32,000 bases of DNA, taken from Rhodospirillales bacterium. Its GTDB lineage: Bacteria; Pseudomonadota; Alphaproteobacteria; Rhodospirillales; Casp-alpha2. Shown one piece after another: positions 1,551-17,253 of this stretch (its first letter is position 1; every line of letters starts with the position of its first letter). A program made the position numbers and the translations under genes. The notes under the pieces were generated by a model, which worked only from the letters and a program-made list of their open reading frames with translations, did no database searches and was not told the origin of the DNA. The stretch is taken from positions 87,175 through 119,174 of the forward strand of contig JAVJOU010000003.1 in NCBI GenBank assembly GCA_040216635.1, given 5' to 3'.

Positions 1551-1627
1551 GGCGGAGTAGCTCAGCTGGTTAGAGCAGCGGAATCATAATCCGCGTGTCG
1601 GGGGTTCGAGTCCCTCCTCCGCTACCA
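1551..1627 (+). tRNA. tRNA-Met (anticodon CAU); tRNA-Ile2 (lysidine) cannot be excluded
   Basis: Hand-folded cloverleaf: acceptor ggcggag/ctccgct, D arm gctc/gagc, anticodon arm gcgga-atCATaa-tccgc, T arm ggggg-ttcgagt-ccctc, discriminator A, encoded CCA. Not initiator-like. Confidence 0.9.
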
Positions 1628-1628
1628 A
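1583..1628 (+). repeat. attL core: 46-bp direct repeat (3' part of tRNA-Met)
   Basis: 1583-1628 matches 17208-17253 at all 46 positions (compared base by base). The flanking bases differ on both sides. Confidence 0.85.
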
Positions 1629-1634
1629 CAAAAA

Positions 1635-1669
1635 CCCCGCTAGGTCAATGACTTAGCGGGGTTTATCTT
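1635..1669 (+). terminator. Rho-independent terminator after tRNA-Met (supplied by the element)
   Basis: ccccgcta / tagcgggg 8-bp stem followed by tttatctt. Confidence 0.6.
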
Positions 1670-1685
1670 GCCTTCCGCCCGGCAG

Positions 1686-1707
1686 TCATGTTGCAACCTT
1701 GTTGCAA
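1686..1707 (-). repeat. Tandem 11-mers ttgcaacaagg + ttgcaacatga (candidate integrase arm-type sites)
   Basis: Read on the minus strand. Same motif family as 1756-1777 and 17148-17169. Confidence 0.55.
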
Positions 1708-1755
1708 GGTAATTCCATTGAATAACAGCCAGTTACAAGCGGTGACAAAAAATCC

Positions 1756-1777
1756 ATGCAACAAGGTTGCGACAAGG
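1756..1777 (+). repeat. Tandem 11-mers atgcaacaagg + ttgcgacaagg (candidate integrase arm-type sites)
   Basis: Inverted relative to 1686-1707. The decamer ttgcgacaag recurs at 17148. Confidence 0.55.
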
Positions 1778-2128
1778 CGCGGGTGACGGCGGCAATTGGG
1801 GCGTTGGGTCGCTAAGCTTTGACGATTGCGCCCGCCCGAGTGATCGCTTGCGCGGGCGTCTATTTTGCCCTATATTGAACCCGCTTGGACAAGTGCGCCT
1901 AATCCGCATTTGGTGTTGATGGGCGCAGCAGAATACCTTATATTGTCAGAATTGGAATTATAGCGACCCGGCACCAGTCGCGGGCGCTTCTTTCGTTTGG
2001 CGCATAGACCAGACGTACACAGCCCAAGTCCCTTAAACATCAGCCCGCCGCCGCCCGTTAGGGTGCGCGGTTTTTTTGTGCGGCCACGGGACGGCCGCGA
2101 CCAAACACCTATGAGAAGGAAAGCAGAA

Positions 2129-2320
2129 ATGAACAGCATGAAATCTGGATTGAATGACGACCTTTTGCGCGGCGCGGAAGCTATCGGCGGCTACTTGGGC
2201 GAGTCCCGCCGCCGGGTGCATTACATGTGCCAACAGGGACATATCCCCGCCTTCCAAGTCGGCAAACGGTGGTACGCCAAAAAATCTGACCTGGACAAGC
2301 GGTTTAGCGCCGCCGGGTAA
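2129..2320 (+). CDS. AlpA/excisionase-type helix-turn-helix DNA-binding protein (63 aa)
   Basis: GAEAIGGYLGESRRRVHYMCQQGHIPAFQVGKRWYAKKSDLD fits the small HTH_17/MerR-like Xis/AlpA pattern. The ATG at 2129 is preceded by gaaggaaag. This is the first gene inside attL. Confidence 0.7.
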   Translation: MNSMKSGLNDDLLRGAEAIGGYLGESRRRVHYMCQQGHIPAFQVGKRWYAKKSDLDKRFSAAG

Positions 2321-2344
2321 TCCCCCGACATGATCGAGTGACAC

Positions 2345-2475: not shown

Positions 2476-3045
2476 ATGAAACTATCTGCATTCCCCCGAA
2501 AATTCAACCATGGCGTTCCCGCGCCGACATCATCGGGCCGACGCCCAGGCTATCAAATCCCGGTAGGTGATCGGGTCGCCGTTGTTGACGCGCAGGACGC
2601 GCACATCATTAAGCAATATCGCTGGCGTCGTGGCGGGACGGGTGGCGGCTACGCGGTCGCGCGCGTCAAAGGATCGACGGTGTACATGCACAGGCTCATT
2701 ATGGGGGCCGGTGCCGGTGAGATCGTGGACCATGCAAACGGCGACACGATGGACAACCGCCGAAGCAACCTCCGGCTGGTCACGCGATCAGAAAACGCGG
2801 CCAATCGCGCCACAACTGAAAACGCCTCCGGCTTCCGGGGCGTTGTCTTTCATCCCCTGAAAAATCGCTATCAAGGTCGCGTCTCAAAAGACGGCGGCAC
2901 CTATCGCGGCCCCTACCGACGCAAGGCGGAAGATGCCGCGCGAGACTTCGACGCACTCGCCCGTGGCCTGTACGGCGCGTGTTGCTCGTTCAACTTTCCG
3001 ATGGATGGTGAACGGGGCGTTACGCCCGTTGGGGGTGCGCTATGA
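2476..3045 (+). CDS. HNH endonuclease (HNH_3-like) fused to an AP2 DNA-binding domain
   Basis: VDHANGDTMDNRRSNLRLVTRSENAAN is an HNH motif. SGFRGVVFHPLKNRYQGRVSKDGGTYRGPYRRKAEDAARDFDALA is an AP2-type fold pattern. Confidence 0.8.
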   Translation: MKLSAFPRKFNHGVPAPTSSGRRPGYQIPVGDRVAVVDAQDAHIIKQYRWRRGGTGGGYAVARVKGSTVYMHRLIMGAGAGEIVDHANGDTMDNRRSNLRLVTRSENAANRATTENASGFRGVVFHPLKNRYQGRVSKDGGTYRGPYRRKAEDAARDFDALARGLYGACCSFNFPMDGERGVTPVGGAL

Positions 3046-3581
3046 ACAACCAAGTTGAGGCGCTCACAGCCCATGACCCTATCAAGCCGGTCCCGCGCGA
3101 TATGCTGGCGAACGCAATCATGGTTGGTTCGCGGGCATATGCGGGCCGGGATCGCATGGCCCCCCTCGCTGGTCAATATGCGCCGTCCCTATGGATGGAA
3201 GATGAGGATGACGGTCTGCAACTTGTCACCTTCACGAATCATCCGTTGAACCGCTTTGCTATGTCGATCCTGGATGCAAACCCGTTCGACCGCGACACAG
3301 CCCGCGCGCTTCTGTTCCGGTCGTTCCTGTTCGCGGACGTGATGAACGACAAACGGGCAGCACCCTATCGGCGCGACGACACCGCCGCCCATATGGTTGA
3401 GGTTGACGACGCATTAATTGAAGCCGTCGCGCAGGTGCCGCACGCTTTCATGGCGCAACCAAACTTTGACGAAATATTCCGCCGCGCTGCTGATGCCGTC
3501 TCAGGCCAGCCGCGATTGCCTCTGGCCGATCCAGCGCCCGTGCGTTGTGGAAAACCGGAGGACGAAAACCATGCCGGATAG
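3042..3581 (+). CDS. Hypothetical protein (179 aa)
   Basis: ATGA overlap with the upstream gene and co-directional operon context. No recognisable motif. Confidence 0.55.
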   Translation: MNNQVEALTAHDPIKPVPRDMLANAIMVGSRAYAGRDRMAPLAGQYAPSLWMEDEDDGLQLVTFTNHPLNRFAMSILDANPFDRDTARALLFRSFLFADVMNDKRAAPYRRDDTAAHMVEVDDALIEAVAQVPHAFMAQPNFDEIFRRAADAVSGQPRLPLADPAPVRCGKPEDENHAG

Positions 3582-3858
3582 CGCACCCATAGACACCCGT
3601 TCCAACGAGGGCGTTGCCCTTCGATTGTCCGAAGGTTGGCAAATCAACTTCGACTCCCTTCAATGGATCGTCTGTAGGGGCCGAAATTTGCGTTCAGGGC
3701 GCAAGTGGCAGCCCGTGGCATACATCGCGGCCCGGAAGTCTTCACTCCTGCGGATACTGGCCGAATACGGGGCGGAAATTACCCCAGGGGCCGAAGCGAC
3801 CTTAACAGCCTGGCCCGACACCTTCCGCCAGTGGCGAGCGCAACGGGAGGGGCGTTAG
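3571..3858 (+). CDS. Hypothetical protein (95 aa)
   Basis: The internal ATG at 3571 is preceded by ggagga. It ends directly before the primase ATG. Confidence 0.5.
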   Translation: MPDSAPIDTRSNEGVALRLSEGWQINFDSLQWIVCRGRNLRSGRKWQPVAYIAARKSSLLRILAEYGAEITPGAEATLTAWPDTFRQWRAQREGR

Positions 3859-4851
3859 ATGTTTGGCGCTCATGCGCCGGATTACATCGCGCACCGGCTG
3901 GCCGTGTTTCCGACCGGGGGCGATGATGGCAAGCGGCCCCTTGTTGGTAATTATTCTCGAATGGGTTTGCCCGCGTCCCGGCGCTTATCCCAGGCCCAAC
4001 GATTCAGGACCGCGAATGTAGGATTCTGCACCGGCCCCAGATCAGGCTTAACCGTGGTCGATGTAGACAGCCAGAAGGAAAGCGACTTTGCCGCCGCGCT
4101 GGCCCACTTCGGGGACACCCCGGTAAAGATTCAAAGTGGATCTGGACATTTCCAGGCATGGTATAGGCACGGCGGAGAACGGCGACAAATCCGCGCCCTG
4201 GATAAGATCGACATTCTAGGCACCGGCCTTTGCATCGCCCCGCCGTCTGTTCGCCCGGATCGAGACAACGGCGCTTATCGGTTTCTGGAAGGCTCGCTTG
4301 ACGACCTGGACCGCTTACCCGCCCTGAAATCTCCCGTAGCGCCTTCCCAGGCTGGCCCGGCGCATGTTTCGACTGGAGGCGCGGAACAGGGCCAGCGGAA
4401 CATCTCTCTATTCAGACAGTGCTTAAAAGACCTAGCCGAAGGATGGCCCGCCGATGAACTGCCCGCCCGTGCTTGTGCCTGGAATGAACAGTGCACCCCG
4501 CCGCTACCAGAGGCCGAAGTGATGGCCGTTGCAGCATCGGCAATCCGCTATCACGAACGGGGCGAGAACTGGATAGGCCAGGAAGCCCGCGCACATATCA
4601 CGGCCAGTGAATTAGGCGACCTTGGCGGCAATGGTGATGCCGTGTTGCTCTTGATGAAAGTCCGGGCCGCGCATGGCTGGCGTTGTGGTGAACCGTTCCC
4701 GCTGGCGATGGCGTTGGGCGAGACGCTTGGATGGCACCCCAAAAAATTCCGACAAGTGCGCGGGTTTCTGTGCGAGCGCGATTATCTGGAATGCGTTCAC
4801 CCCGGCGGCGCTGGTCCCGGCGACCCGGCCCTATATCGGCTGCTTAAATGA
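3859..4851 (+). CDS. Bifunctional primase/polymerase (Prim-Pol N-terminal domain) with PriCT-like C-terminal domain
   Basis: VVDVDSQKE...IQSGSGHFQAWYRH...ILGTGLCIAPPS matches the Prim-Pol catalytic pattern (DxD, sGGxH). The C-terminal NISLFRQC...PLPEAEVMAVAASAIRY is PriCT-like. Confidence 0.8.
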   Translation: MFGAHAPDYIAHRLAVFPTGGDDGKRPLVGNYSRMGLPASRRLSQAQRFRTANVGFCTGPRSGLTVVDVDSQKESDFAAALAHFGDTPVKIQSGSGHFQAWYRHGGERRQIRALDKIDILGTGLCIAPPSVRPDRDNGAYRFLEGSLDDLDRLPALKSPVAPSQAGPAHVSTGGAEQGQRNISLFRQCLKDLAEGWPADELPARACAWNEQCTPPLPEAEVMAVAASAIRYHERGENWIGQEARAHITASELGDLGGNGDAVLLLMKVRAAHGWRCGEPFPLAMALGETLGWHPKKFRQVRGFLCERDYLECVHPGGAGPGDPALYRLLK

Positions 4852-5023
4852 CCGTTCGGGCAAAGTGGCAAAAGGGGGCACATTTTTGCCCCCAATATAA
4901 CTATACCCCTTCCCCCCTCTATCCAGGGGACCAGGATCGAAAACAGCCAGAAACCAATTTTGCGCGATTTTCGATTTTCAATCCGCGTCGTGAGACGCCG
5001 AGGCCCATAGAAGGAATTTCAGC

Positions 5024-5206
5024 ATGAAAGAAGATTTGCAATTTGGCCGCGTTGACCTTTTCCCAGACTGGCTGGAATTGCTGCGGTCGGTTGACTATGA
5101 CGTTGACCGGTTGCCGCGAGCCGACGCACGCGCGGTCTATCACGGCCTACGGATGAGCAATATTTGGCTGATGGTCCCCCGCCGGAGCCGTCGCGATGCT
5201 GATTGA
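5024..5206 (+). CDS. Small hypothetical protein (60 aa)
   Basis: gaagga lies 9 nt upstream of the ATG. Its stop overlaps the start of the next gene. Confidence 0.35.
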   Translation: MKEDLQFGRVDLFPDWLELLRSVDYDVDRLPRADARAVYHGLRMSNIWLMVPRRSRRDAD

Positions 5207-5726
5207 TGAATCTGTTTTCGCGGATTGGCCGCCGGGCGCGTTCATCTTCAACATGGCGAGTCCCGCCAAGGTGAACGCGGCCCGTTTACGCCGAATTGCG
5301 GAAGACCTGGCTACACACAGTAACCAGGATCATAGATGGCTTGGCGAGCGTGTTCTTGACTACCTGGACGACGCCCCACGAGGCGCGACCCTGGACCGTG
5401 CCCTAGGTGTTGAACCTTTGCCGTTTTGTCGCCCCTGGTGGGACGAGGACACCCGCGACAACCTAGTGACTCAACTGGCCGCCCACTTTCCAGGCAAGAA
5501 GCTAACCGTAAAGGCTAAGGCGAGTGCCGCCGCTGCGAGACGATATGCCACCGACGTATGGCCGCGCGAGTGTGGCCTTTCTGAGCCGCCGGAATGGCGA
5601 GAGGGGTCGGCGCAGGAAATCTGCTGGCGGCTTCACAAGGCCCCCGGCAAATGGCCGTTGGGCTGGCGCCAGATTTACAGCGTTTTGCAATCACGACCCG
5701 TTCCGATTGCAAAAACTGAGGCGTAA
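5196..5726 (+). CDS. Hypothetical protein (176 aa)
   Basis: Co-directional ORF with normal amino-acid composition. No recognisable motif. Confidence 0.55.
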   Translation: MLIDESVFADWPPGAFIFNMASPAKVNAARLRRIAEDLATHSNQDHRWLGERVLDYLDDAPRGATLDRALGVEPLPFCRPWWDEDTRDNLVTQLAAHFPGKKLTVKAKASAAAARRYATDVWPRECGLSEPPEWREGSAQEICWRLHKAPGKWPLGWRQIYSVLQSRPVPIAKTEA

Positions 5727-5777
5727 ATTTGTTGCATGGAAGGCGGGACAGCCCCCGCCCGTAGTGGAGAAATTAAA

Positions 5778-6383
5778 ATGTTTGGAAAAAAGCAGGCCAA
5801 GCTTCCGGCGGTTGAAACCGTGGAGACGTCTTCGCAGGACGCCCGCGCCAAGGTATCCGCATTGAGGGCACGTTTGCGCGAACTGGAAAACGAACGCGCC
5901 CGCCTGAATTCCGCACGTTGGGCGATTGAAACCGCGAATGATGGCGGCAAGCTTGATGATGCCGCCGCCGCGCTGTTGGAAGACGTTGCTGCCGAAATCC
6001 CAGACGTGACCAACATCGAGCAAAATCTCAAAAAGGTTGAGAACGATATCGTCGTTACAGAGAAAGCCTTATTCAAGGCACGGGAAATTCTGGACGCTGC
6101 AAAGCGGCGGGATGCAAGGGCGGCTGTTAAGCAGCTGCGCCCGGCGCACCGTGAGGCCGTCGCTAAAATCGCGCACGCCCTAGCCCTTTTGGAAGATGCC
6201 AACAGGGAGGAAGCCGCGATCAGGGGACAGATTCCGGGCGGCGGGCCAACGCTGCCGTTGGCTTCGTTCCCCGGCGTTGGGGGGCGTAATATCCAATGTA
6301 GTCCGGCCTTTTATTGGTTCCGCTTCGCCAAGGACAGCGGCTTGCTGGATGAGCGGCCCCTCTACGCTGACGCGGCGGATTGA
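5778..6383 (+). CDS. Coiled-coil hypothetical protein (201 aa); a scaffold-like role is only a guess
   Basis: The ATG at 5778 is preceded by ggagaa. Long charged, Ala-rich helical segments (ARAKVSALRARLRELENERARL...). It sits directly upstream of the prohead-protease-like gene. Confidence 0.5.
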   Translation: MFGKKQAKLPAVETVETSSQDARAKVSALRARLRELENERARLNSARWAIETANDGGKLDDAAAALLEDVAAEIPDVTNIEQNLKKVENDIVVTEKALFKAREILDAAKRRDARAAVKQLRPAHREAVAKIAHALALLEDANREEAAIRGQIPGGGPTLPLASFPGVGGRNIQCSPAFYWFRFAKDSGLLDERPLYADAAD

Positions 6384-6386
6384 TCC

Positions 6387-7031
6387 ATGACAAATTTGAT
6401 CGGAGTGGATGGCCGCGCCCTTGCCGTCGTGGGATTGGCTTTGCCCTATGGCGAGTGGATTTCCGATAGCAACCTACCCGAACGCGTCCAGTCTGGCGCG
6501 CTTGATAGTCAGTTTGCGCGGGGCGTGTGGTGTCCTGGTGATCCTCAATTGTCCAATGGCGTGACCTGGGAACATGACGACACATTCCGAATTGCAGAGC
6601 CGCAAAACGTCTCAATCCTGAATGCGCCGTCCGGCTTGTACTTCCATGCTCTACTGCCCGACAACGCGCGCGGAAGGCATGCCGCCCAATGCGCGGGATC
6701 AGGGATATTCGGCGCGAGCGTCGGCAATTTCGACATTCGCAACCAAGATCAGGACGGCACGGTTACGGCGTGCAGAATCCGCGCCATCGGCCTTACAGAC
6801 CGCCCGGCATATGAAACCGTTATTTGGCGTTCCGACGCGGCCCCCGAAAGCATGCCGACGGAAGCCCGAGACACTATGCGCCGGTTTCAGATTGCCGACA
6901 TGGCAGCGCGTAGCCGGACGGACGCCCCCGAAGCGAAGGGCACGGGTAAGGCTGTAATTCACATTTTCCAGGACGGCGCGAAAAACGGAAAGCCGACATA
7001 CCGCCGCGAAGTCAGAACGGTGCGCCCATGA
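6387..7031 (+). CDS. HK97-family prohead protease-like protein (S78 type)
   Basis: VTWEHDD (candidate catalytic His) and GIFGASVGNF (candidate Ser) occur in the usual order, and LTDRPAYE lies near the end of the domain. Confidence 0.6.
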   Translation: MTNLIGVDGRALAVVGLALPYGEWISDSNLPERVQSGALDSQFARGVWCPGDPQLSNGVTWEHDDTFRIAEPQNVSILNAPSGLYFHALLPDNARGRHAAQCAGSGIFGASVGNFDIRNQDQDGTVTACRIRAIGLTDRPAYETVIWRSDAAPESMPTEARDTMRRFQIADMAARSRTDAPEAKGTGKAVIHIFQDGAKNGKPTYRREVRTVRP

Positions 7032-7657
7032 ACGGCGCGACCTTAACCCTTGTAACACCGCCCCCCGTTTATCCGGTGACGGACGCGGAAGTGTGGGACC
7101 ATCTGAGGGTGAACCTCATAGGGTCGCCTGCGGTCCCTGTTGACCAGTCACATATCGCGACCCTCATTGCCGCCGCCGTCAACCATATGGACGGTAAGGA
7201 CGGCGCGTTGGGCCGCGCCTTGGTCACTCAAACCTGGGACTACAAAATGGATTGCCTTCCGCGTGACGGCTTTAAAGTCCCGTTGCCGCCCGTGCAGTCT
7301 GTGACGTTCATCAAGTACATCGACCTAAACGGGATCGAACAAACGCTATCCTCTGACCTGTACACGGTCGATACATCTTCTGAACCGGCGCGGATCGTCC
7401 CGGCATATGGCGAGACGTGGCCCGACGCCCGGAACCAAGTCAACGCCGTCACAGTGCGCCTTGTCTGCGGCTACCCCCCCGAGGGAAGCCCGGCAGACTA
7501 CCGCGCGAATGTGCCCGGCCCCATCAAATCGGCGATTAAGCTGTTGGTCGATGACCTGTACCAGCACCGGGGCACAGCGGGGCCGCGCGCACCCATCAAG
7601 ACCATTCCCCTCAATGTGTCGGCGCTTATCGCGCCCTATCGCGCGTGGGGGGTGTGA
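7028..7657 (+). CDS. Head-tail connector/adaptor (gp6-like, phiE125 gp8 / TIGR02215-type)
   Basis: N-terminus: VTDAEVWDHLRVN...IATLIAAAVNHMDGKDGALGRALVTQTW. C-terminus: PLPPVQSVTFIKYIDLNG...YTVD...PARIVPAYGETWP...VTVRLVCGY. Confidence 0.7.
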   Translation: MNGATLTLVTPPPVYPVTDAEVWDHLRVNLIGSPAVPVDQSHIATLIAAAVNHMDGKDGALGRALVTQTWDYKMDCLPRDGFKVPLPPVQSVTFIKYIDLNGIEQTLSSDLYTVDTSSEPARIVPAYGETWPDARNQVNAVTVRLVCGYPPEGSPADYRANVPGPIKSAIKLLVDDLYQHRGTAGPRAPIKTIPLNVSALIAPYRAWGV

Positions 7658-7660
7658 CGC

Positions 7661-8077
7661 ATGTTTGACAAACTGAAACACAAATTCGGTAGGGCCGTTC
7701 TCCCCCAAGCCGAAGGGGCCGGCAGCGTCTCCGGGTGCGTTGGCGCGCCGCCCCATCAATTCCAGGACCAAGCCGACAAGGAAACAGACGCGGCTTTTTT
7801 AATCATCGAGCAAAGCCCGGACCCCGCCATGGCTGCAATCACACTTGCCACAGTTGCGGTTGATCTTGTCGCGGCTGTAGGTGGTCGAAAGGTCGCGCGT
7901 GATTTCGTGATGATCCAGCTTGCCCGCGTCCGCGCTAACGCCATCCCGGCCCAAGTCGATATTGAAGGGATCACGGTTGCTGATGTACGCGCCGCCATCG
8001 AAGCACAGCGGGTCAAGGTCGAACAGGCCGCGCAATCATCGGAACAGCTTCGCGTCCTGATGCCGGGGCCGCAATGA
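7661..8077 (+). CDS. Hypothetical protein (138 aa)
   Basis: Co-directional ORF 3 nt after the previous stop. No motif recognised. Confidence 0.5.
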   Translation: MFDKLKHKFGRAVLPQAEGAGSVSGCVGAPPHQFQDQADKETDAAFLIIEQSPDPAMAAITLATVAVDLVAAVGGRKVARDFVMIQLARVRANAIPAQVDIEGITVADVRAAIEAQRVKVEQAAQSSEQLRVLMPGPQ

Positions 8078-8183
8078 TGGGCGAGGTATTGCACACAGAC
8101 GGCCACCAGGGGATGGGGGGGCAAAATAGCTACAAGACGGGTTTTTGCGTACCGGTGTTGCCCTTTTGCGTGGATGAAATGGA

Positions 8184-11842: not shown

Positions 11843-11898
11843 TGCCCAGGGGCGGATTCGAACCACCGACACCCGCATTTTCAGTGCGGTGTTCTACC
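11843..11898 (-). pseudogene. tRNA-Phe(GAA) 3' fragment (D-arm remnant to discriminator), non-functional
   Basis: The minus strand reads ggtagaacaccgcaCTGAAAAtgcgggtgtcggtggttcgaatccgcccctgggca. The anticodon arm, variable loop, T arm and 3' acceptor strand are intact. There is no 5' acceptor/D-stem partner and no CCA. Confidence 0.75.
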
Positions 11899-12355
11899 TA
11901 TTTCCCGTCGGGCGGCAGTACCCCGGCAATCGAATTGCCCTTCTGGCGTCCGGCGTTTCCAATTCACGATACCGTCCACCGGAAAACCTGGGGCAATCGA
12001 GCGCCAACCCAGCCTTGATAACCTCGGTCCCAATGTCCCTGTTCCCGAGATAGCAGATACCAACAACCCGGTCATGGGTTCGCGTCCCATCCAATTCGCA
12101 CCGCACGGCCTGGCCCATGACCAGGCGCACCATGAATGCTTTACCCTCATCGTATAGGGGTTGCCTTTTCTCGGGTGCGGAGACGCCTTGAAGGCGCACG
12201 GCGATACCCTCAACCTCAATCGTGTCACCGTCGCGCACGTGGGTGACGGTCCCTGTCAAGTCGGCGGCGAAGCCTGTGACGGGATAGCTGAGCAAGGTCG
12301 TGACGGCGAAGAAGAGCTTAGCGTAATTCCCAAACTTCACAGGTGAACGGGTCAA
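11894..12355 (-). CDS. Secreted thermonuclease (staphylococcal nuclease/SNase family)
   Basis: Signal peptide ...LLSYPVTGFA-AD. VRDGDTIEV...VRLQGVSAPE shows SNase Ca-binding and catalytic motifs. Confidence 0.8.
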   Translation of the reverse strand: MTRSPVKFGNYAKLFFAVTTLLSYPVTGFAADLTGTVTHVRDGDTIEVEGIAVRLQGVSAPEKRQPLYDEGKAFMVRLVMGQAVRCELDGTRTHDRVVGICYLGNRDIGTEVIKAGLALDCPRFSGGRYRELETPDARRAIRLPGYCRPTGNR

Positions 12356-12358
12356 TTT

Positions 12359-12754
12359 CTAGTTGGACAATTTTACCGCCAAATTGATGACGACGTCGTA
12401 AAAATATATCACGCCCATTACAACGGCAGCTACTCCAGGTAAGAGCAAAAAAAATAACCCCGCCCAAAAAACTAAACCGATAAAAGCGTTGTCACTATCT
12501 AATCCCCATTTTCCAATCCGATGGCCTATCCGTCCGAGTGCAGATAACACAGTTACAAGCCAAAGTAGCGAAATAAAGAACGCAAACCCCCTAATCAGCA
12601 CATCGCCAGATAATCGACCGATGGCTACAATAGTTGATATTATTAACAACCATCCTAGAGATTCAAAAACACGCCCTGTCAATCCCCATAAGTGTTGATT
12701 AACCCATGTGATAGCCGCTGATTTTAGTGAATCTAGTTTATTCATAATCAACAT
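12359..12754 (-). CDS. Small integral membrane protein (131 aa, 3-4 TM), unknown function
   Basis: gggagg RBS. Hydrophobic segments: GWLLIISTIVAIG, FAFFISLLWLVTVLSALG, FIGLVFWAGLFFLLL, VAAVVMGVIYFY. About 41% GC by hand count over 12361-12760, against about 73% in the next 60 bp. Confidence 0.65.
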   Translation of the reverse strand: MLIMNKLDSLKSAAITWVNQHLWGLTGRVFESLGWLLIISTIVAIGRLSGDVLIRGFAFFISLLWLVTVLSALGRIGHRIGKWGLDSDNAFIGLVFWAGLFFLLLPGVAAVVMGVIYFYDVVINLAVKLSN

Positions 12755-12780: not shown

Positions 12781-13023
12781 TCACTCCCCCGGCCCCCGAA
12801 GCCTGACCCCCGGCCCCTGGCCGTTGCTGGCGATGAACACGACCCCGGCGGCCTCTAGGGCCGTTCGTAATCTTTCAAGTGTCTCGTCGCGCGCTGAAAC
12901 GGGTCCGTGAATCTTTTCCAGGCGCTTAACCGTCTCAAGCGAGACGCCCGCCGCGCCCGATAGGTCGCGTTGCTCCATGCGAACCAACGCCCGCGCGGCT
13001 CGGATTTGTTCCCCGGTCATCAT
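12781..13023 (-). CDS. XRE-family helix-turn-helix transcriptional regulator (80 aa)
   Basis: GEQIRAARALVRMEQRDLSGAAGVSLETVKRLE is a classic HTH_3 pattern. Confidence 0.8.
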   Translation of the reverse strand: MMTGEQIRAARALVRMEQRDLSGAAGVSLETVKRLEKIHGPVSARDETLERLRTALEAAGVVFIASNGQGPGVRLRGPGE

Positions 13024-13034
13024 GCAGATAATTT

Positions 13035-13083
13035 ACACCTCAGGTGTTGAAACTGCAAATAAATGTAATTACACTTGAGGTGT
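13035..13083. promoter_or_regulatory. Two operator-like palindromes in the divergent region
   Basis: acacct-c-aggtgt (13035-13047, perfect) and acactt-g-aggtgt (13071-13083, one mismatch). Each is preceded by tta. Confidence 0.5.
13047..13075 (+). promoter_or_regulatory. Candidate rightward sigma70-type promoter bracketed by the two palindromes
   Basis: TTGAAA (13047-13052), 17-nt spacer, TACACT (13070-13075). The -10 lies inside the second palindrome. Confidence 0.4.
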
Positions 13084-13159
13084 AAGTAAGCAGGGCCGGA
13101 AAGGGATTGCGCCCCCTTCCAGCCCCTACGCCCCAAACCTGAAACGGAGGTTCAAGACG

Positions 13160-13873
13160 ATGCCTGATTTTACCAGACGACAGGCTACGAATGCCATCGC
13201 CGCAAGCGCCGTGATCGCCCCAATTACATTAACCGCGCATGCCTCAACTGACGGTGCGGTTGCGGCCCTCGTCAAAAAACGTGCGGAACTATGGGTTAAA
13301 TTTTGCGCCGCCGACAATTTAGCTGATGAGCGCCGGTTCGCGTTGCCTGATGAAATCCGCCGCCCGCGTGTCTTGTTGAGCGACGGACACCCAATAGGCC
13401 CGCAATACGCACACAGCAGGGAAGAAATCGCCCGGTATTTCGACCGTTTCAAACAGGAAGCCTTGGCTACAAAGGATTTCGCCGGGTTCCTGATGTGGGC
13501 GCAAATCAATCAAATACCCGGAAGCTGGACGGCGGATGAAATGCAATCGTCGGGACCGCTGGCCCGGGAACGGTATTTTGATAACCTCGCCAAAAACCGC
13601 GCCGCCAAGCTGGCCGAATACGAACAGGCGGAAGCCCGCACCCAAGCCGCCAAGGACGCGGCGGGCGTGACGGATGCCGAAGCCGAAGCGGCCCGGATCG
13701 ATGCGGAAGAAAGGGCAACCGTACAAGCAATAATCGACACCCCGAGCGGTGGCCCCCGCGACTTGCTCGCCAAACTTTCTATGTTGGAAATCACGGAGGG
13801 CAGCAGCGAAGCCTACTGGCACGGCGACATTCTCGAAAGCCTGCGCCGCGATCTACAGGCCGTGGGGGCGTGA
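13160..13873 (+). CDS. Hypothetical protein with Tat-like N-terminus (237 aa)
   Basis: MPDFTRRQATNAIAASAVIAPITLTAHA has a twin-Arg, a hydrophobic stretch and A-H-A. The rest is helical and charged, with no recognised domain. Confidence 0.55.
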   Translation: MPDFTRRQATNAIAASAVIAPITLTAHASTDGAVAALVKKRAELWVKFCAADNLADERRFALPDEIRRPRVLLSDGHPIGPQYAHSREEIARYFDRFKQEALATKDFAGFLMWAQINQIPGSWTADEMQSSGPLARERYFDNLAKNRAAKLAEYEQAEARTQAAKDAAGVTDAEAEAARIDAEERATVQAIIDTPSGGPRDLLAKLSMLEITEGSSEAYWHGDILESLRRDLQAVGA

Positions 13874-13876
13874 CCC

Positions 13877-14038
13877 ATGACCGCAACCCAAGAACAACTT
13901 GCGCGCCTTCGTGACTGCCTGACGCGCCTACGGGGCGTGGTGGAAGACCTTGAGCGGGATCACGCCGCCAACGACGAAGCCAAGCCCCAAGGGGAGGTAG
14001 AGTTTGACAAGCCTGACAAGCCGCCAGTGATCGACTAG
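13877..14038 (+). CDS. Small hypothetical protein (53 aa), below the ORF-track cutoff
   Basis: The ATG at 13877 lies 4 nt after the previous stop (MTATQEQLARLRDCLTRLRGVVEDLERD...). It ends TAG at 14036-14038, and a terminator follows. Confidence 0.35.
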   Translation: MTATQEQLARLRDCLTRLRGVVEDLERDHAANDEAKPQGEVEFDKPDKPPVID

Positions 14039-14051
14039 GCAGCAAAAACCT

Positions 14052-14075
14052 CGCCCCGCTTCGGCGGGGTTTTTC
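14052..14075 (+). terminator. Rho-independent terminator
   Basis: ccccgc-ttcg-gcgggg hairpin followed by ttttt. Confidence 0.65.
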
Positions 14076-14116
14076 TTGTCCGAGTCCTCTTGCCAGATGG
14101 GAGCGGCGGGGAATAT

Positions 14117-14131
14117 GTTCGCATTATGTTC
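14117..14131. promoter_or_regulatory. Alphaproteobacterial-type LexA (SOS) box, GTTC-N7-GTTC
   Basis: gttcgcattatgttc. It overlaps the candidate -10 (TATGTT; -35 TTGCCA at 14090-14095) and the umuD ATG at 14126. Confidence 0.65.
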
Positions 14132-14566
14132 TCATCATCCCAGAAACACCGAATCCTGCACCCCATCGTTGAACGGCGGCTTCCGTTACCGTTGTTATTG
14201 TCGAGTGTGCCCGCAGGCTTCCCGAGCCCCGCCGAAGATTTCGCGGATGGGGCACTCGACCTTAACGATTTGATCGAGCATCCAGCGGCGACCTTCATTG
14301 TTCGGGTGTCTGGGTATTCTATGACTGGGGCGGGTATTTTTGACGGCGACCTACTGATTGTGGACCGGAGTATTAAGCCACGATCCGGCCAAATCGTCGT
14401 TGCCGTCATGGCGGGGGATATGATGGTGAAGCGTCTGAGACAGAAATCCGGGCAGTGGTGGTTGGTGCCTGAAGCCCAAGACCATGAAGAATTTCAAGCT
14501 GTGGAAATGGGCGAGGACTCGGAAATCTGGGGCGTGGTCAAGAATGTGATGCGGTGCTTGTCGTGA
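14126..14566 (+). CDS. umuD: UmuD-like S24 peptidase (translesion polymerase V accessory subunit)
   Basis: [12 protein letters not shown] aligns with E. coli UmuD VQCGFPSPAADY, placing an Ala-Gly cleavage site. GYSM supplies the Ser and MVKRL the Lys. Start set at the ATG at 14126 within track ORF 14090..14566. Confidence 0.85.
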
Positions 14567-15816
14567 CCCGCATTTTCGCCCTAGCCGATGCCAACAATTT
14601 TTATGCGTCATGCGAGCGGGTGTTCCAGCCGGAGCTACGCGATAAGCCCACGGTGGTCCTGTCCAACAACGACGGATGTGTGATAGCCCGTTCACCGGAG
14701 GCCAAAGCTCTAGGCATCGCCATGGGAGCCCCTTTTTTCAAGCTGCGAGAGCGGCCCGAATGCCGGGGCGTCCAAATCCGATCCGCGAACTTCACGTTAT
14801 ACGGCGACATGAGCCGCCGGTTCATGGACATCATCGCCGCCAACGTGCCGGACATGGAAATCTACAGCATTGATGAGTGTTTCATCGATTACACCGGCAC
14901 GGATCAGGCAGCGGGTCACGCGCGGGCGCTTCGGGCCACTATCCTGCAATGGACCGGCCTCCATGTGAGCATCGGCCTAGGTGTGACCAAGACCCTTGCC
15001 AAGGTCGCCAACCGCCGGGCCAAGACAGCCCCTGATGGGGTTTTTGATTTGATGGCCCCGGACATACGGGAAAACGTGCTCAGGGAAACCGACGTTGGCG
15101 ACGTGTGGGGAATCGGGCGGCAGTGGTCGAACCGCCTTAAGCTTCGCGGCATTCAGAATGCCTTTGACCTGGCCCAGGTGGACCGGCAATGGGCGCGCAA
15201 CGTCATGGGCGTCACCGGACTGCGCACGGTCGATGAACTGAACGGTCTGTCCGCAGTGGATCTGGAACATGTTCTCCCGGATAAGCAGACCTTGTGCGTC
15301 TCCCGCAGCTTCGGAACCACCGTCCGGGATCGTGATGGACTGGCGGCCCGCCTGCATCACTTCGCAGCCAGGGCGGCGGAAAAGCTGCGCCAGGGCGGCT
15401 TGGTCGCGGGTGCCGTCAACGTATTCATCCGGGGCAACCCATTCCGTCCCGACCTACCGCAATATTCGAACAGCGCCACAGTGAACATGCTGCAATCGAC
15501 CTCCGATACCGGAGACATTGTACGAGCTACGTTACAAGGCCTGGATGGGATATACCGGCAAGGCATTCCCTACAAAAAAGCAGGTGTGTTGCTGGTGAAT
15601 ATTCATCGTAGAGAGCAAGCGCCGCAGACATTATTCAGCAGGCCAGACGCGCGCCGGGATGCGTTAATGCACACCCTGGATAAATTGAACAGCAAGCACG
15701 GTGCCGGCACCCTCTGTTATGGCGAACTACCACAGCCACGGACGTGGTTTATGCGGCAGCAGCATCGATCGCGACGGTATACGACGCATTGGGGAGAGTT
15801 GCCGATAGTGAGTTAA
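14554..15816 (+). CDS. umuC: Y-family DNA polymerase V catalytic subunit UmuC
   Basis: [48 protein letters not shown] closely parallels the E. coli UmuC N-terminus. GTG starts at 14554 or 14563 overlap the umuD stop. Confidence 0.9.
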
Positions 15817-15859
15817 TGCACGCGGGGGGGGGCAGGTTTTGGAGGGTGGGCCAAGATAA

Positions 15860-15888
15860 TTGACAAGCGGAATTTATTGCAACATAAT
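15860..15888 (+). promoter_or_regulatory. Candidate sigma70-type promoter for int
   Basis: TTGACA (15860-15865), 17-nt spacer, CATAAT (15883-15888). The -10 overlaps a copy of the 11-mer motif (ttgcaacataa, 15877-15887). Confidence 0.4.
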
Positions 15889-15923
15889 CGCGATGTAGCC
15901 AACAGCCACTAGGAGCGAGTGCC

Positions 15924-17147
15924 ATGGCAAAGGTTAGAAAGCGCAAATGGGAGTCCGGCGGCAAAACCCGCGAGGCTTGGGTGGTCGATTATTTCGACCA
16001 AAACCGAAAGCGCCACATTGAGACGTTCAAGACGAAGCGCGCCGCCGATGATCGGTTGCATGAAATCGCGGGCGAGGTTCGCGCCGGGACGCATACCGCC
16101 GCAAGCGAAAGTGTGACGGTAAAGGAAGCCGCCGCCGATTGGATCACGCGCGCGGAATTGAACGAGCGCGAACAATCGACCATCGACCAATACCGCCAAC
16201 ACGTAAACCTCCATATCGTGCCGTTGATCGGCAATGAAACGTTGGCGCGGTTGACGGTGCCCGCCGTCGAAGCCTTCCGGGATAAGCTGCTGGATCGTGC
16301 GTCGGCCAAGCGGCCCGATGATAAGATTTCACGCGCCACGGCCAAGAAGGTACTGGCGAGCCTGAAAGGCATTCTCAGGGAAGCGCAGAGGCGCGGGAAG
16401 GTGGCTCAGAACGTCGCCGCCGACGTGCGAGTGGAAATGTCGAAACGCAACCGCCGTAGCTTGGAAATCGGGCGGGACATTCCTTCCCGCGACGAAGTGA
16501 AAGCGATCATTGATGCCTCAGAGGGTCGATGGCGCCCTCTGATTATCACGGCGATATTCTCGGGCTTGCGCGCCAGTGAATTGCGCGGGCTGCTTTGGGA
16601 TCACGTCGATTTTGAAGGCAAGGTTATTCACGTCCGGCAACGGGCAGACCGCTATGGCGAAATTGGCAACCCGAAATCGGAAACCAGCCGCCGCGATGTT
16701 CCGATTCCCGATATTGTGGTGAACACCCTAAAGGAATGGCGCTTGCAGTGCCCGAGGCACGGGAAGTCGGAAACCAGTCCGGGCGAATTGTGGCTGGTAT
16801 TCCCGAACGGCCTAGGCAAGATCGAGTCTCACGCGAACATCTATAACCGGGGTTTGGTCCCTGCCCAGATCGCCGCCGCCGTCACCGTGGATACGGGCGA
16901 AGTGGATAAGGACGGAAACCCCATCCTGGCCCCCAAGTATGCGTTGCACGCCTTCCGCCACTTCTACGCATCTTGGCTTATCAACCGAAAGAAGGACGGG
17001 GGCCTTGAGCTTCCGGCAAAAACCGTGCAATCCCGCCTTGGTCATTCATCTATTCAGATCACCATGGACCTATACTCGCACCTGTTCCCCGCCGACGACG
17101 GCCACCACAAGGAATTGTCAGATGGGGCGCGGCTACTACTCGGGTAA
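15924..17147 (+). CDS. int: Tyrosine-type site-specific integrase (phage integrase family)
   Basis: Catalytic pattern: ...GLRASELRGL..., HAFRHFYAS (H-x-x-R) and GHSSIQITMDLYSHL (Tyr). The N-terminal arm-binding-type domain is MAKVRKRKWESGGKTREAWVVDYFD. An aggag RBS is present. Confidence 0.9.
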   Translation: MAKVRKRKWESGGKTREAWVVDYFDQNRKRHIETFKTKRAADDRLHEIAGEVRAGTHTAASESVTVKEAAADWITRAELNEREQSTIDQYRQHVNLHIVPLIGNETLARLTVPAVEAFRDKLLDRASAKRPDDKISRATAKKVLASLKGILREAQRRGKVAQNVAADVRVEMSKRNRRSLEIGRDIPSRDEVKAIIDASEGRWRPLIITAIFSGLRASELRGLLWDHVDFEGKVIHVRQRADRYGEIGNPKSETSRRDVPIPDIVVNTLKEWRLQCPRHGKSETSPGELWLVFPNGLGKIESHANIYNRGLVPAQIAAAVTVDTGEVDKDGNPILAPKYALHAFRHFYASWLINRKKDGGLELPAKTVQSRLGHSSIQITMDLYSHLFPADDGHHKELSDGARLLLG

Positions 17148-17169
17148 TTGCGACAAGAATGCAACAAAA
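17148..17169 (+). repeat. Tandem 11-mers ttgcgacaaga + atgcaacaaaa (candidate integrase arm-type sites)
   Basis: Starts immediately after the int stop codon and ends 38 nt before the attR core. Same motif as the attL-proximal copies. Confidence 0.55.
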
Positions 17170-17207
17170 AGGCCCAAAAGCCGCAGAAATACTAGCCTGA
17201 AAACAGT

Positions 17208-17253
17208 ATCATAATCCGCGTGTCGGGGGTTCGAGTCCCTCCTCCGCTACCAA
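17208..17253 (+). repeat. attR core: 46-bp direct repeat (displaced original 3' part of tRNA-Met)
   Basis: Identical to 1583-1628. No 5' half of a tRNA lies upstream, so this is not a gene. Confidence 0.85.

What the first reader, a model, noticed from the sequence alone, without database searches (positions are those of the whole stretch)
1583..17253. Intact-looking tRNA-Met island with an incomplete, satellite-like phage gene set
Seen in sequence: a perfect 46-bp att duplication, int at one end and an AlpA/Xis-like HTH at the other. These two genes become neighbours across attP in a circular form. A Prim-Pol primase is also present. Morphogenesis genes are limited to a prohead-protease-like gene, a gp6-like connector, a P27 small terminase, a gp10-like gene and a tape measure. 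No ORF has the size or motifs I would expect for a large terminase, portal, major capsid, tail tube, baseplate or lysis protein. Gene junctions are tight (ATGA/GTGA overlaps) and nothing looks frameshifted, which argues against simple prophage decay. Encoding a TerS without a TerL is how PICI-type satellites hijack helper packaging. However, a protease without a capsid gene plus a tape measure does not match the PICI, cfPICI, P4-like or PLE layouts as I know them. The element may therefore be an undescribed alphaproteobacterial satellite family, or a chimeric remnant.
Basis: partly seen in the sequence, partly recalled or inferred. Interest (0 to 1): 0.78.

Follow-up and report, generated by a model that had tools for sequence, protein, structure and literature searches.

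The report
New satellite-like island with protease and tape measure
A 15.6-kb mobile island in a marine Rhodospirillales genome looks like a new family of phage parasite: it cannot build a virus particle itself, but it keeps a conserved kit (DNA-packaging subunit, head protease, tail-lumen proteins) that would let it take over the head and tail of a helper phage.

Summary
A perfect 46-bp repeat (1583-1628 / 17208-17253) brackets a 15,625-bp island at tRNA-Met. The island carries an integrase, an AlpA-like HTH, Prim-Pol, a P27-type TerS, a divergent S78 prohead protease, a gp6-like adaptor, a gp10-like tail-completion protein and a 763-aa tape measure. No TerL, portal, capsid, tail-tube, baseplate or lysis gene was detected.

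It is not a decayed prophage. A second element from marine Rhodospirillaceae bins is 14,979 bp and has the identical att site. It shares 14 genes in the same order at 49-82% amino-acid identity. Synonymous sites are saturated and dN/dS is 0.06-0.32. Integrase arm-type sites and repressor operators are also conserved.

A third, very distant element (15,640 bp, tRNA-Val, different integrase and replication genes) keeps u176-like, helical-protein, S78-protease and tape-measure genes in the same order.

The adjacent gp10-like and TMP genes match marine phage-like tail clusters, which are candidate helpers.

The best reading is an undescribed PICI-like satellite family that redirects packaging and supplies tail-lumen and neck parts, as PLEs do. 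It fails the PICI and cfPICI membership tests. Mobilisation is inferred, not shown. Only two complete close relatives are known.

The parts
1551..1627 (+). tRNA-Met (CAT), the integration target
   Evidence: ARAGORN
1583..1628 (.). attL: left copy of the perfect 46-bp repeat (3' part of the tRNA)
   Evidence: The identical 46 bp flank the L001/L014 element.
1686..1777 (.). Four arm-type sites TGCRACAAGR in two pairs spaced 11 bp apart (1686/1697 on the - strand, 1757/1768 on the + strand). Putative Int/Xis arm sites.
   Evidence: All 4 exact matches in the 32-kb window lie next to attL or attR. The arrangement is conserved in L001.
2112..2320 (+). AlpA-like HTH_17 (putative excisionase/activator). 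The start codon is uncertain (2112 or 2130). A terminator-like hairpin follows at 2345-2360.
   Evidence: PF12728 E 5e-8; phrog_66 E 1e-3. Absent from L001.
2476..3045 (+). HNH_3 homing-type endonuclease. Accessory.
   Evidence: PF13392 E 1e-10; phrog_99 E 2e-29; PADLOC HEase. Absent from L001.
3042..3858 (+). Two ORFs of unknown function (3042-3581 and about 3571-3858). Accessory.
   Evidence: No profile hits. No homologue in L001.
3859..4851 (+). Prim-Pol + PriCT_1 primase/replicase. First gene of the conserved operon.
   Evidence: PF09250 E 4e-14, PF08708 E 8e-9. 63% identity to L001. dN/dS 0.13.
4848..5206 (+). Two small conserved ORFs (59 and 60 aa).
   Evidence: Partial matches in L001.
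5196..5726 (+). u176: conserved core protein of unknown function.
   Evidence: 51% identity to L001, dN/dS 0.19. The C-terminal half matches the L007 144-aa ORF (hmmsearch E 1e-6, hhalign probability 66%).
5736..6383 (+). cc215: all-helical protein (scaffold-like by inference). Core gene directly upstream of the protease.
   Evidence: AF2 gives four long helices at pLDDT about 80. 56% identity to L001, dN/dS 0.15. The C-terminal domain matches the L007 281-aa ORF (E 7e-9, hhalign probability 87%). No significant fold or PDB match.
6387..7031 (+). Divergent stand-alone S78-type prohead serine protease. Core gene.
   Evidence: phrog_2263 (protease-capsid fusion family, profile positions 99-211) E 9e-7. 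The profile search reaches PF04586 proteins and S78-capsid fusions. His63 and Ser111 are invariant in 9 sequences at 29-61% identity. The top PDB fold hits of a poor model are herpesvirus assemblins.
7028..7657 (+). gp6-like head-tail adaptor/connector. Accessory, present only in this element.
   Evidence: TIGR02215 E 3e-24; phrog_442 E 3e-19. 29-38% identity to adaptors of alphaproteobacterial siphophages and of L010-L013. Absent from L001/L002.
7661..8077 (+). u138: conserved protein of unknown function.
   Evidence: 59% identity to L001-L004, dN/dS 0.32. No profile or PDB hits.
8111..8127 (+). Conserved 17-mer GGATGGGGGGGCAAAAT in the only sizeable gap of the operon, upstream of terS. Candidate cos/pac site or late regulatory site.
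   Evidence: The same 17-mer lies upstream of terS in L001/L002/L008/L014. Chance expectation is 0.02.
8184..8555 (+). P27-family small terminase (Terminase_4).
   Evidence: PF05119 E 1e-6; phrog_83 E 2e-6. 49% identity to L001.
8545..9049 (+). Two small conserved proteins: s102 (8545-8790) and s118 (8780-9049). Both start with the basic motif M-A/P-T-K-R-x-R/K-R.
   Evidence: 68% and 64% identity to L001. N-terminal motif and 13-mer junction repeat. No similarity to tail assembly chaperones or phage proteins.
9049..9486 (+). HK97 gp10-like tail completion protein, directly upstream of the tape measure gene.
   Evidence: PF04883 E 1e-9; phrog_5 E 6e-18. 71% identity to L001, dN/dS 0.10. The same gp10-TMP adjacency occurs in phage-like loci L009, L010 and L012.
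9486..11777 (+). Tape measure protein, 763 aa.
   Evidence: TMP PHROGs, best E 9e-13. 61% identity to L001. The N-terminal 320 aa are 66% identical to IMG/VR L011/L012 and 39% to L007. The C-terminal motif is shared with Roseobacter phage and cyanophage TMPs.
11894..12754 (-). Cargo: SNase-like nuclease (11894-12355) and a 131-aa membrane protein (12359-12754).
   Evidence: PF00565 E 1e-6; phrog_452. Not in L001. No PADLOC hit.
12781..13023 (-). 80-aa XRE-type HTH, putative master repressor. Core gene.
   Evidence: Weak PF13560 hit. 72% identity to L001/L014.
13033..13085 (.). Two palindromic operators TTACACYTNRGGTGT in the divergent promoter region.
   Evidence: Both copies are conserved in L014.
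13160..14038 (+). Unknown ORFs (237 and 53 aa), followed by a terminator at 14053-14070.
   Evidence: Not conserved in L001.
14090..15816 (+). Cargo: umuD-umuC cassette (umuD 14090-14566, umuC 14554-15816) with an alpha-type SOS box GTTCGCATTATGTTC at 14117-14131.
   Evidence: PF00717 E 5e-25; PF00817 E 8e-38. SOS box. Absent from L001.
15924..17147 (+). Tyrosine integrase, preceded by a promoter-like site at 15860-15888 (11 of 12 consensus matches).
   Evidence: PF00589 E 2e-15. 82% identity to L001, dN/dS 0.06. Promoter.
17149..17169 (+). Pair of arm-type sites next to attR.
   Evidence: Conserved in L014.
17208..17253 (.). attR: right copy of the 46-bp repeat. The displaced native tRNA terminator follows at 17273-17305.

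Best explanation
The island is an integrative phage satellite of a previously undescribed family. It is PICI-like in its left half and carries an unusual hijacking module.

Proposed cycle:
1. It sits in the 3' end of tRNA-Met, held by a tyrosine integrase with arm-type sites. An 80-aa HTH repressor bound to two operators keeps it quiet.
2. When a helper siphophage of the marine alphaproteobacterial type is active, AlpA and Int excise the island, and Prim-Pol replicates the circle.
3. Its P27-type TerS directs the helper's TerL to island DNA.
4. The block u176 / helical cc215 / S78 protease acts on helper procapsid assembly and maturation.
5. [quoted passage not shown] The resulting particles are chimeric, as shown experimentally for PLEs.

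Shown here: the anatomy, the conservation, the purifying selection, and the phage origin of the tail genes.

Inferred: induction, packaging, capsid remodelling, chimeric tails, and the identity of the helper.
For: Intact recombination module:
- The 46-bp att repeat is perfect.
- Paired arm-type sites lie at both ends, and these include all exact matches in the window.
- The integrase has its own promoter-like site.

Family conservation:
- L001/L014 is 14,979 bp with the identical att.
- It shares 14 genes in the same order at 49-82% identity.
- pS is 0.56-0.79 (saturated) and dN/dS is 0.06-0.32, including for three unknown ORFs.
- Arm sites and operators are conserved.
- The attR copy is still perfect in both elements, although neutral sites are saturated.

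Accessory genes differ between the two elements: umuDC, SNase, HNH, gp6 and alpA here, versus PemK and a 426-aa HTH protein there.

Distant element L007:
- It sits at tRNA-Val with a 55-bp repeat spaced 15,640 bp.
- Its integrase and replication genes are different.
- It keeps u176-like, cc-like, S78 protease (fused to ClpP) and TMP genes in the same order.

The three elements measure 15.0-15.6 kb, which is the classical satellite size.

No TerL, portal, capsid, tube, baseplate or lysis gene was found in the window element by Pfam, PHROGs or NCBIfam, or among the genes of L001 and L007 that were scanned or had precomputed Pfam marks. No capsid remnant was found in the window.

Phage origin of the tail genes:
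- The gp10-like and TMP genes are adjacent, as in phage-like tail clusters L009, L010 and L012.
- The TMP N-terminus is 66% identical to L011/L012.
- In the 80alpha/SaPI1 neck structure, the HK97-gp10-equivalent protein binds the TMP N-termini, the DNA end and the gp6-equivalent connector (PMC11661146).

Precedents: PLEs assemble chimeric tails with their own TMP (PMC12987554). EPIP satellites carry TerS, an adaptor and a TMP (PMC12822802). Alphaproteobacterial VEIMEs carry HNH and prohead-type protease genes (PMC9618062).
Against: - There is no direct evidence of excision, replication or encapsidation.
- No relative of the protease, cc215 or u138 was found in IMG/VR. None was found in cultured phages or plasmids.
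- No helper prophage lies in the window; the flanks are housekeeping genes.
- The window and L001 hosts share flanking synteny. The two close copies could therefore descend vertically from one insertion, so transfer is not demonstrated.
- The family is tiny: about 9 protein clusters at E < 1e-20 among 1.84 billion representatives, and only two complete close elements plus one distant one.
- The functions of u176, cc215, u138, s102 and s118 are unknown. The scaffold role of cc215 rests only on a helical model and gene position.
- L012 is a phage-like tail cluster whose head genes were not seen.
Confidence: 0.6

Rival explanations
1. The island is an integrative element whose phage-like genes serve mainly as anti-phage interference or defence. 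Decoy tape measure and tail-completion proteins, a protease that spoils procapsid maturation and a TerS that misdirects packaging would protect the host, without the island itself being transduced. Alternatively it moves by some other route.
For: Satellites and islands commonly block tail or capsid assembly: Tai systems (PMC11364771) and PLE Rta. No virome hit exists for island-specific genes. The two close copies sit in syntenic chromosomal contexts. The cargo includes a nuclease and toxin-type genes.
Against: Interference alone does not explain three things. First, the att, arm sites, Int, AlpA and Prim-Pol are all intact and conserved. Second, the size stays at 15.0-15.6 kb in three elements with different cargo. 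Third, the attR copy is perfect despite saturated neutral divergence. No PADLOC model hits the cargo. In known satellites, interference and own transfer go together.
Confidence: 0.17
2. The island is a decayed or chimeric prophage remnant: what is left after deletions removed the TerL, portal, capsid and tail-tube genes.
For: All recognisable structural genes are of HK97-like siphophage type. Their order (protease, adaptor, TerS, gp10, TMP) is scrambled relative to phages. The gp6-like gene is present in only one element.
Against: The same reduced gene set and order recur at 49-82% identity with dN/dS 0.06-0.32 and no stop codons. A distant lineage with another integrase and another tRNA target keeps the same core. 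The protease homologues are stand-alone proteins of 214-266 aa, not truncated fusions. No capsid remnants were found. The att sites are perfect.
Confidence: 0.06
3. The island is an autonomous but unconventional small virus or GTA-like particle producer. Its capsid, portal and packaging ATPase would be among the unassigned ORFs or supplied by host-domesticated genes.
For: Eight ORFs have no assignment. The tail relatives L010 and L012 resemble GTA-lineage clusters, with a 138-139-aa major tail protein.
Against: No conserved unassigned ORF exceeds 215 aa. That is too short for known HK97-fold capsid, portal or TerL proteins. cc215 is all-helical. There are no tube, baseplate or lysis genes. S78-capsid fusion queries match only the protease.
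Confidence: 0.05

Closest known systems
PICIs of Gram-negative bacteria (e.g. EcCICFT073-type), as modelled in SatelliteFinder (PMC10085698)
   Same: About 15 kb. Tyrosine integrase and att duplication. AlpA-type regulator. Primase/replicase. Own TerS without TerL. Accessory cargo at the ends. No lysis genes.
   Different: It carries tail and neck genes (TMP, gp10-like, gp6-like) that are 'forbidden' components in the PICI model. It has an S78 protease. It has no recognisable Ppi, Rpp or Cpm-type capsid-morphogenesis gene. int and alpA lie at opposite ends of the integrated form. The host is a marine Rhodospirillales.
PLEs of Vibrio cholerae (chimeric-tail mechanism, PMC12987554)
   Same: A satellite encodes its own tape measure plus a partner tail-assembly protein and relies on the helper for tube and baseplate. 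This gives the mechanistic precedent for the gp10-like/TMP pair.
   Different: No sequence relationship was found. PLEs parasitise a lytic myovirus and carry TAC and a baseplate hub, not a tail-completion protein. PLEs use RepA and other markers. PLEs have no S78 protease or P27 TerS core.
EPIPs of Mycolicibacterium (PMC12822802)
   Same: Small satellites encoding TerS, a head-tail adaptor, a scaffolding-type protein and a TMP, but lacking tail-tube and lysis genes.
   Different: They occur in Actinobacteria, use a serine integrase, have a stopper protein, and have no Prim-Pol or S78 protease reported. No homology was tested or seen here.
cfPICIs
   Same: Prohead serine protease, head-tail adaptor, HNH and TerS occur together in an integrase/AlpA/primase island. 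Some cfPICIs carry putative tmp genes (PMC12987554, Extended Data Fig. 10).
   Different: The defining capsid, portal and TerL genes are absent here. The HNH here is a homing-type HNH_3 and is accessory.
VEIMEs of marine Alphaproteobacteria (PMC9618062)
   Same: Marine habitat and alphaproteobacterial hosts. Tyrosine integrases. Modules with HNH and prohead-type serine protease, or with TerS.
   Different: VEIMEs are defined by recovery from virus particles, often as concatemers of small monomers. Encapsidation is not shown here, and no TMP is mentioned in that paper.

Membership tests
PICI (SatelliteFinder definition, PMC10085698) | Integrase | tested here: met
   PF00589 E 2e-15, 15924-17147.
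PICI (SatelliteFinder definition, PMC10085698) | Regulation module (alpA, merR or stl homologue) | tested here: met
   HTH_17/AlpA-like E 5e-8, plus an 80-aa HTH with operators.
PICI (SatelliteFinder definition, PMC10085698) | Primase-replicase module | tested here: met
   Prim-Pol + PriCT_1.
PICI (SatelliteFinder definition, PMC10085698) | Small terminase | tested here: met
   Terminase_4 E 1e-6.
PICI (SatelliteFinder definition, PMC10085698) | Capsid-morphogenesis gene of PICI type | tested here: inconclusive
   No Pfam, PHROG or NCBIfam hit to such a gene. cc215 and u176 are candidates by position only. SatelliteFinder profiles were not available.
PICI (SatelliteFinder definition, PMC10085698) | Absence of forbidden components (tail genes, head-tail adaptor/connector, portal, holin) | tested here: not met
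   TMP, gp10-like and gp6-like genes are present. Definition read.
PICI (SatelliteFinder definition, PMC10085698) | Induction and packaging by a helper phage | not testable with these tools
   Needs experiment or read mapping.
cfPICI | Own major capsid protein, portal and TerL | tested here: not met
   No hits in three profile libraries. S78-capsid fusion queries match only the protease ORF.
cfPICI | Prohead serine protease and head-tail adaptor | tested here: met
   S78-like protease. gp6-like adaptor, though the adaptor is missing from the sister element.
cfPICI | No tail genes | tested here: not met
   TMP and a tail-completion gene are present.
P4-like satellites | psu-delta-sid operon, epsilon, alpha primase-helicase | tested here: not met
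   No PHROG or Pfam hit to these in any island ORF. The primase is Prim-Pol/PriCT_1 only.
PLE | PLE marker set (RepA, CapR, NixI, LidI and others), Vibrio host, ICP1 helper | not tested
   No PLE profiles were available. The host is a Rhodospirillales MAG. Only the concept of an own TMP is shared.
EPIP | Serine integrase; TerS, adaptor, stopper, TMP; Mycobacteriaceae host | tested here: not met
   The integrase is a tyrosine recombinase. No stopper was found. The host differs. TerS, adaptor and TMP are present.
VEIME | Recovered from virus particles (encapsidated, often concatemeric) | not testable with these tools
   No IMG/VR relatives of island-specific genes.
Peptidase_S78 (HK97-type prohead protease), for ORF 6387-7031 | Match to PF04586 above the gathering score | tested here: not met
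   No Pfam hit at E <= 0.01. The close relative P0004 scores 18.5 bits against a cut-off of 21.
Peptidase_S78 (HK97-type prohead protease), for ORF 6387-7031 | Homology to S78 proteins and conserved catalytic His/Ser | tested here: met
   The family profile retrieves PF04586 proteins and S78-capsid fusions. His63 and Ser111 are invariant. phrog_2263 E 9e-7. The top fold hits are herpesvirus assemblins, but the model is poor (pLDDT 46).
Tape measure protein, for ORF 9486-11777 | Homology to TMPs, and position next to tail genes in phages | tested here: met
   Five TMP PHROGs at E <= 1e-7. Annotated TMPs in phages. Homologues in L009-L013 follow the major tail protein, TAC and gp10 genes.

The most novel reading that the evidence does not exclude
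A satellite family whose conserved hijacking core is a capsid-less prohead-type protease plus a helical partner (cc215), u176 and a tape measure with its cognate tail-completion protein. Such an element would reprogram both the head interior and the tail lumen or neck of its helper. The S78 protease would have a substrate other than its own capsid protein: the satellite's scaffold-like protein, the helper's capsid protein, or the tape measure itself. In the distant L007 element the protease is fused to ClpP and lies next to tmp. The approximately constant 15-kb size would reflect a remodelled small capsid.
Probability: 0.3. Interest if true: 0.75.

Novelty: new variant of a known kind. Interest (0 to 1): 0.6.

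Why it matters
Phage satellites are well characterised in only a few bacterial groups, and alphaproteobacterial examples are known mostly as anonymous marine virome elements. This family would add three things.

- A defined, syntenic satellite type in marine Rhodospirillales, with a recognisable att site, regulation region and candidate helper lineage.
- A second, independent case (after PLEs) of a satellite replacing the helper's tape measure. Here the tape measure is paired with the tail-completion protein that contacts the TMP N-termini in the only solved neck structure.
- A prohead protease kept under selection without any capsid gene, which poses a clear mechanistic question.

It also shows that satellite finders which treat tail genes as 'forbidden' will miss such elements.

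Tried and rejected
- **Profile searches swamped.** Two word-indexed profile searches returned few hits.
- **s102/s118 as tail assembly chaperones.** This was suggested by their position before gp10-TMP and their overlapping frames. hhalign against TAC and g10.1-like alignments from L009-L013 gave probability <= 1%, and tblastn against phages found nothing. Rejected.
- **L007 164-aa ORF as TerS.** No support from PHROGs or hhalign. Dropped.
- **Conserved 17-mer as a helper-shared cos site.** The IMG/VR scan gave 3 unrelated contigs with no island homologues. It remains unexplained.
- **Structure route.** The protease model is poor (pLDDT 46). The cc215 model is helical but has no significant fold match. 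The PDB sequence searches for cc215, u138 and u176 found nothing significant.
- **Defence cargo.** PADLOC found nothing beyond the homing endonuclease.
- **Integrase-based metagenome scan.** It gave 30 loci, but only L014 (the same contig as L001) carries core genes. The others are short or carry a different island.
- **Extending the window along its source contig.** Exact-protein look-ups failed.
- **Hidden capsid remnants.** S78-capsid fusion proteins match only the protease ORF.

Full report
**1. Observation**

ARAGORN finds one tRNA in the window, tRNA-Met(CAT), at 1551-1627. The repeat finder returns a perfect 46-bp direct repeat at 1583-1628 and 17208-17253, 15,625 bp apart. The left copy is the 3' part of the tRNA. 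The original tRNA terminator hairpin now follows attR (17273-17305), and the island supplies another hairpin after attL. G+C content is not distinctive.

- tyrosine integrase
- AlpA/HTH_17
- Prim-Pol + PriCT_1
- P27-type TerS
- gp6-like adaptor
- HK97 gp10-like tail completion protein
- a 763-aa tape measure

None of about 25 ORFs hits TerL, portal, capsid, tail-tube, baseplate or lysis families in Pfam, PHROGs or NCBIfam.

The cassette sits behind its own terminator and has an alphaproteobacterial SOS box, GTTCGCATTATGTTC. The flanks are ordinary chromosomal genes, and no helper prophage lies in the window.

**2. The protease-like ORF**

ORF 6387-7031 has no Pfam hit. It matches positions 99-211 of a 551-position PHROG of protease-capsid fusions.

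An exhaustive profile search of 1.84 billion representatives found only 14 proteins at E <= 1e-10, and 119 at E <= 1e-3. The distant hits are PF04586 prohead proteases or S78-capsid fusions.

The close relatives are stand-alone proteins of 214-266 aa. His63 and Ser111 are invariant across nine sequences at 29-61% identity.

An AlphaFold model from three sequences is poor (pLDDT 46). Even so, its best PDB matches are herpesvirus assemblins, the fold shared with HK97-type proteases.

I conclude that it is an intact, divergent prohead-type serine protease, not a truncated fusion. S78-capsid fusion proteins align to the protease ORF only and to nothing else in the window.

**3. It is a conserved family, not a remnant**

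The 58%-identical homologue P0002 lies in a 137-kb contig of a marine metagenome bin (L001/L014). The same element was recovered in other assemblies (L002-L005, L008).

That element is also inserted in tRNA-Met and has the identical 46-bp att on both sides. It is 14,979 bp long.

It shares the following with the window, in the same order:

| Gene | Identity |
|---|---|
| Prim-Pol | 63% |
| two small ORFs | partial matches |
| u176 | 51% |
| cc215 | 56% |
| protease | 58% |
| u138 | 59% |
| TerS | 49% |
| s102 | 68% |
| s118 | 64% |
| gp10-like | 71% |
| TMP | 61% |
| HTH80 | 72% |
| integrase | 82% |

Synonymous sites are saturated (pS 0.56-0.79), and dN/dS is 0.06-0.32 for all eight genes tested. 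Those eight include the unknown ORFs u176, cc215 and u138, and none contains a stop codon.

Non-coding signals are conserved too:
- Pairs of TGCRACAAGR sites spaced 11 bp apart lie next to attL and attR. All four exact matches in the 32-kb window are there.
- Two palindromic operators TTACACYTNRGGTGT lie between HTH80 and the divergent gene.
- A 17-mer, GGATGGGGGGGYAAAAT, lies upstream of terS in otherwise unalignable DNA.

The accessory content differs. alpA, HNH, two unknown ORFs, the gp6-like adaptor, SNase plus membrane protein, and umuDC occur only here. PemK, a 426-aa HTH protein and others occur only there.

The hosts are related: their flanking genes are 73-84% identical. Vertical descent from one insertion therefore cannot be excluded. 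However, the attR half-tRNA is still perfect in both elements although neutral sites are saturated. That argues that it is kept functional or was recently re-formed.

**4. A distant lineage keeps the same core**

P0010, an S78-like domain fused to ClpP, lies in L007. This island is bounded by a 55-bp repeat at tRNA-Val, spaced 15,640 bp. It has a different integrase, a topoisomerase-like gene, a RepO-like gene and iterons.

In the same order as in the window it carries:
- a 144-aa ORF matching the C-terminal half of u176 (E 1e-6)
- a 281-aa protein whose C-terminal domain matches cc215 (E 7e-9, hhalign probability 87%)
- the protease (32% identity)
- a 1,062-aa TMP whose first 330 residues are 39% identical to the window's TMP (E 5e-60)

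L007 also has a packaging-type HNH and a 453-aa protein. The first roughly 100 residues of that protein match an ORF downstream of tmp in phage-like loci L012 and L009. No detectable TerL, portal or capsid gene is present.

So three elements of 15.0-15.6 kb share u176, a helical protein, an S78 protease and a TMP, although their recombination, replication and cargo genes differ.

**5. Where the tail genes come from**

An alignment of the TMP N-terminus retrieved the following:
- IMG/VR contigs L011/L012: TMP N-terminus 66% identical, gp10-like 41%, gp6-like 36%
- a gammaproteobacterial MAG contig, L009: gp10 54%
- a Marinicaulis chromosomal cluster, L010
- L013

L012 encodes a tail terminator, a 139-aa major tail protein, a tail assembly chaperone, a gp10-like protein and a TMP. 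L009 and L010 show the same gene order by ORF size, position and similarity to L012. In L009, L010 and L012 the gp10-like gene sits directly upstream of tmp, exactly as in the island.

The phage-type TMPs are about 1,050-1,200 aa, against 763 aa in the island.

L012's upstream genes are sugar-modifying enzymes, and its head genes were not seen. I therefore call it phage-like rather than a proven phage.

**6. Mechanism**

Published work gives a rationale.

[quoted passage not shown] The tail completion protein is the equivalent of lambda gpZ and HK97 gp10. The connector is the equivalent of HK97 gp6 (PMC11661146).

The island encodes exactly this lumen set. gp10-like and TMP are core genes, and the gp6-like gene is present in this copy. 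It has no tube, terminator or baseplate genes.

PLEs have been shown to replace ICP1's TMP, chaperone and hub with their own and to assemble chimeric tails (PMC12987554). EPIP satellites carry TerS, an adaptor and a TMP, and have altered tails (PMC12822802).

I therefore propose the following. The island excises with Int and AlpA and replicates with Prim-Pol. Its TerS recruits the helper's TerL. It builds chimeric particles, supplying the tail-lumen and neck parts itself.

The u176-cc215-protease block, placed where phages have portal, protease and scaffold genes, most plausibly acts on procapsid assembly. cc215 is predicted to be four long helices, like scaffolding proteins, but no significant structural match was found. 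The roughly 15-kb size fits a small capsid or a one-third headful.

All steps after the anatomy are inference.

**7. Comparison with known families**

By the SatelliteFinder definitions (PMC10085698), the island has four of the five PICI core components: int, alpA, primase and terS. It also carries 'forbidden' tail and adaptor genes, so it would be rejected as a PICI.

It lacks the capsid, portal and TerL genes that define cfPICIs. It has no P4 genes. It is unrelated to PLEs except in concept. EPIPs use serine integrases in Actinobacteria.

Marine alphaproteobacterial VEIMEs are reported to carry HNH and prohead-type protease genes, or TerS (PMC9618062). They are defined by encapsidation, which could not be tested here.

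No paper found by five literature searches describes this gene set.

**8. Verdict**

This is an intact, conserved, satellite-like island of a family not yet described: a new variant of the phage-satellite kind.

Weaknesses:
- There is no evidence of mobilisation.
- It does not appear in viromes or in cultured phage and plasmid records.
- Very few members are known.
- Five conserved genes have no assigned function.

Noticed in passing
window 14049-15816: The umuD-umuC cargo cassette has its own upstream terminator (14053-14070) and an alphaproteobacterial-type SOS box, GTTCGCATTATGTTC (14117-14131), overlapping the likely umuD start. The island therefore carries SOS-regulated error-prone polymerase genes.
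   Followed up: partly
window 8545-9049; L001 11807-12317: The two small conserved proteins after terS (s102, s118) both begin with the basic motif M-A/P-T-K-R-x-R/K-R-x-R. Their gene junctions share an exact 13-mer, TGGCGACTAAACG (8546-8558 and 8781-8793). The motif is kept in the sister element. It could be a shared targeting or processing signal.
   Followed up: partly
window 8111-8127; L001 11372-11388: The 17-mer GGATGGGGGGGYAAAAT is conserved upstream of terS in DNA that is otherwise unalignable. An IMG/VR scan found only three unrelated contigs.
   Followed up: yes
L007 10001-11218: The S78-like prohead-protease domain is fused to a ClpP protease domain (405 aa). It lies one 44-aa ORF away from the tape measure gene in a 15.6-kb tRNA-Val island.
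   Followed up: partly
L007 7553-7679: Four iteron-like 26-nt repeats lie inside or next to the RepO-like gene of the distant island. This is probably its replication origin. No comparable iterons were seen near the window's Prim-Pol gene.
   Followed up: no
L014 11348-19400: In the sister genome about 7 kb more DNA lies between attR and the MFS-transporter homologue than in the window (8 kb versus 1 kb). There is no further att copy. It could be another insertion there or a deletion here.
   Followed up: no
L012 9995-13138 and 621-5160: The IMG/VR contig's tape measure appears split into two ORFs (517 + 527 aa), whereas L011 reads through further. Genes upstream of its gp6-like gene are glycosyl-, methyl-, sulfo- and cytidylyl-transferases rather than head genes.
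   Followed up: partly
window 20019-22160 (-): A 713-aa fusion of an ammonium transporter (Amt) domain with HisKA/HATPase histidine-kinase domains, next to an IclR regulator and a TRAP transporter. It is chromosomal and unrelated to the island.
   Followed up: no
window 2476-3045: The HNH_3 homing-type endonuclease is absent from the sister element. It differs from the small packaging-associated HNH found in L007 (16856-17188).
   Followed up: partly
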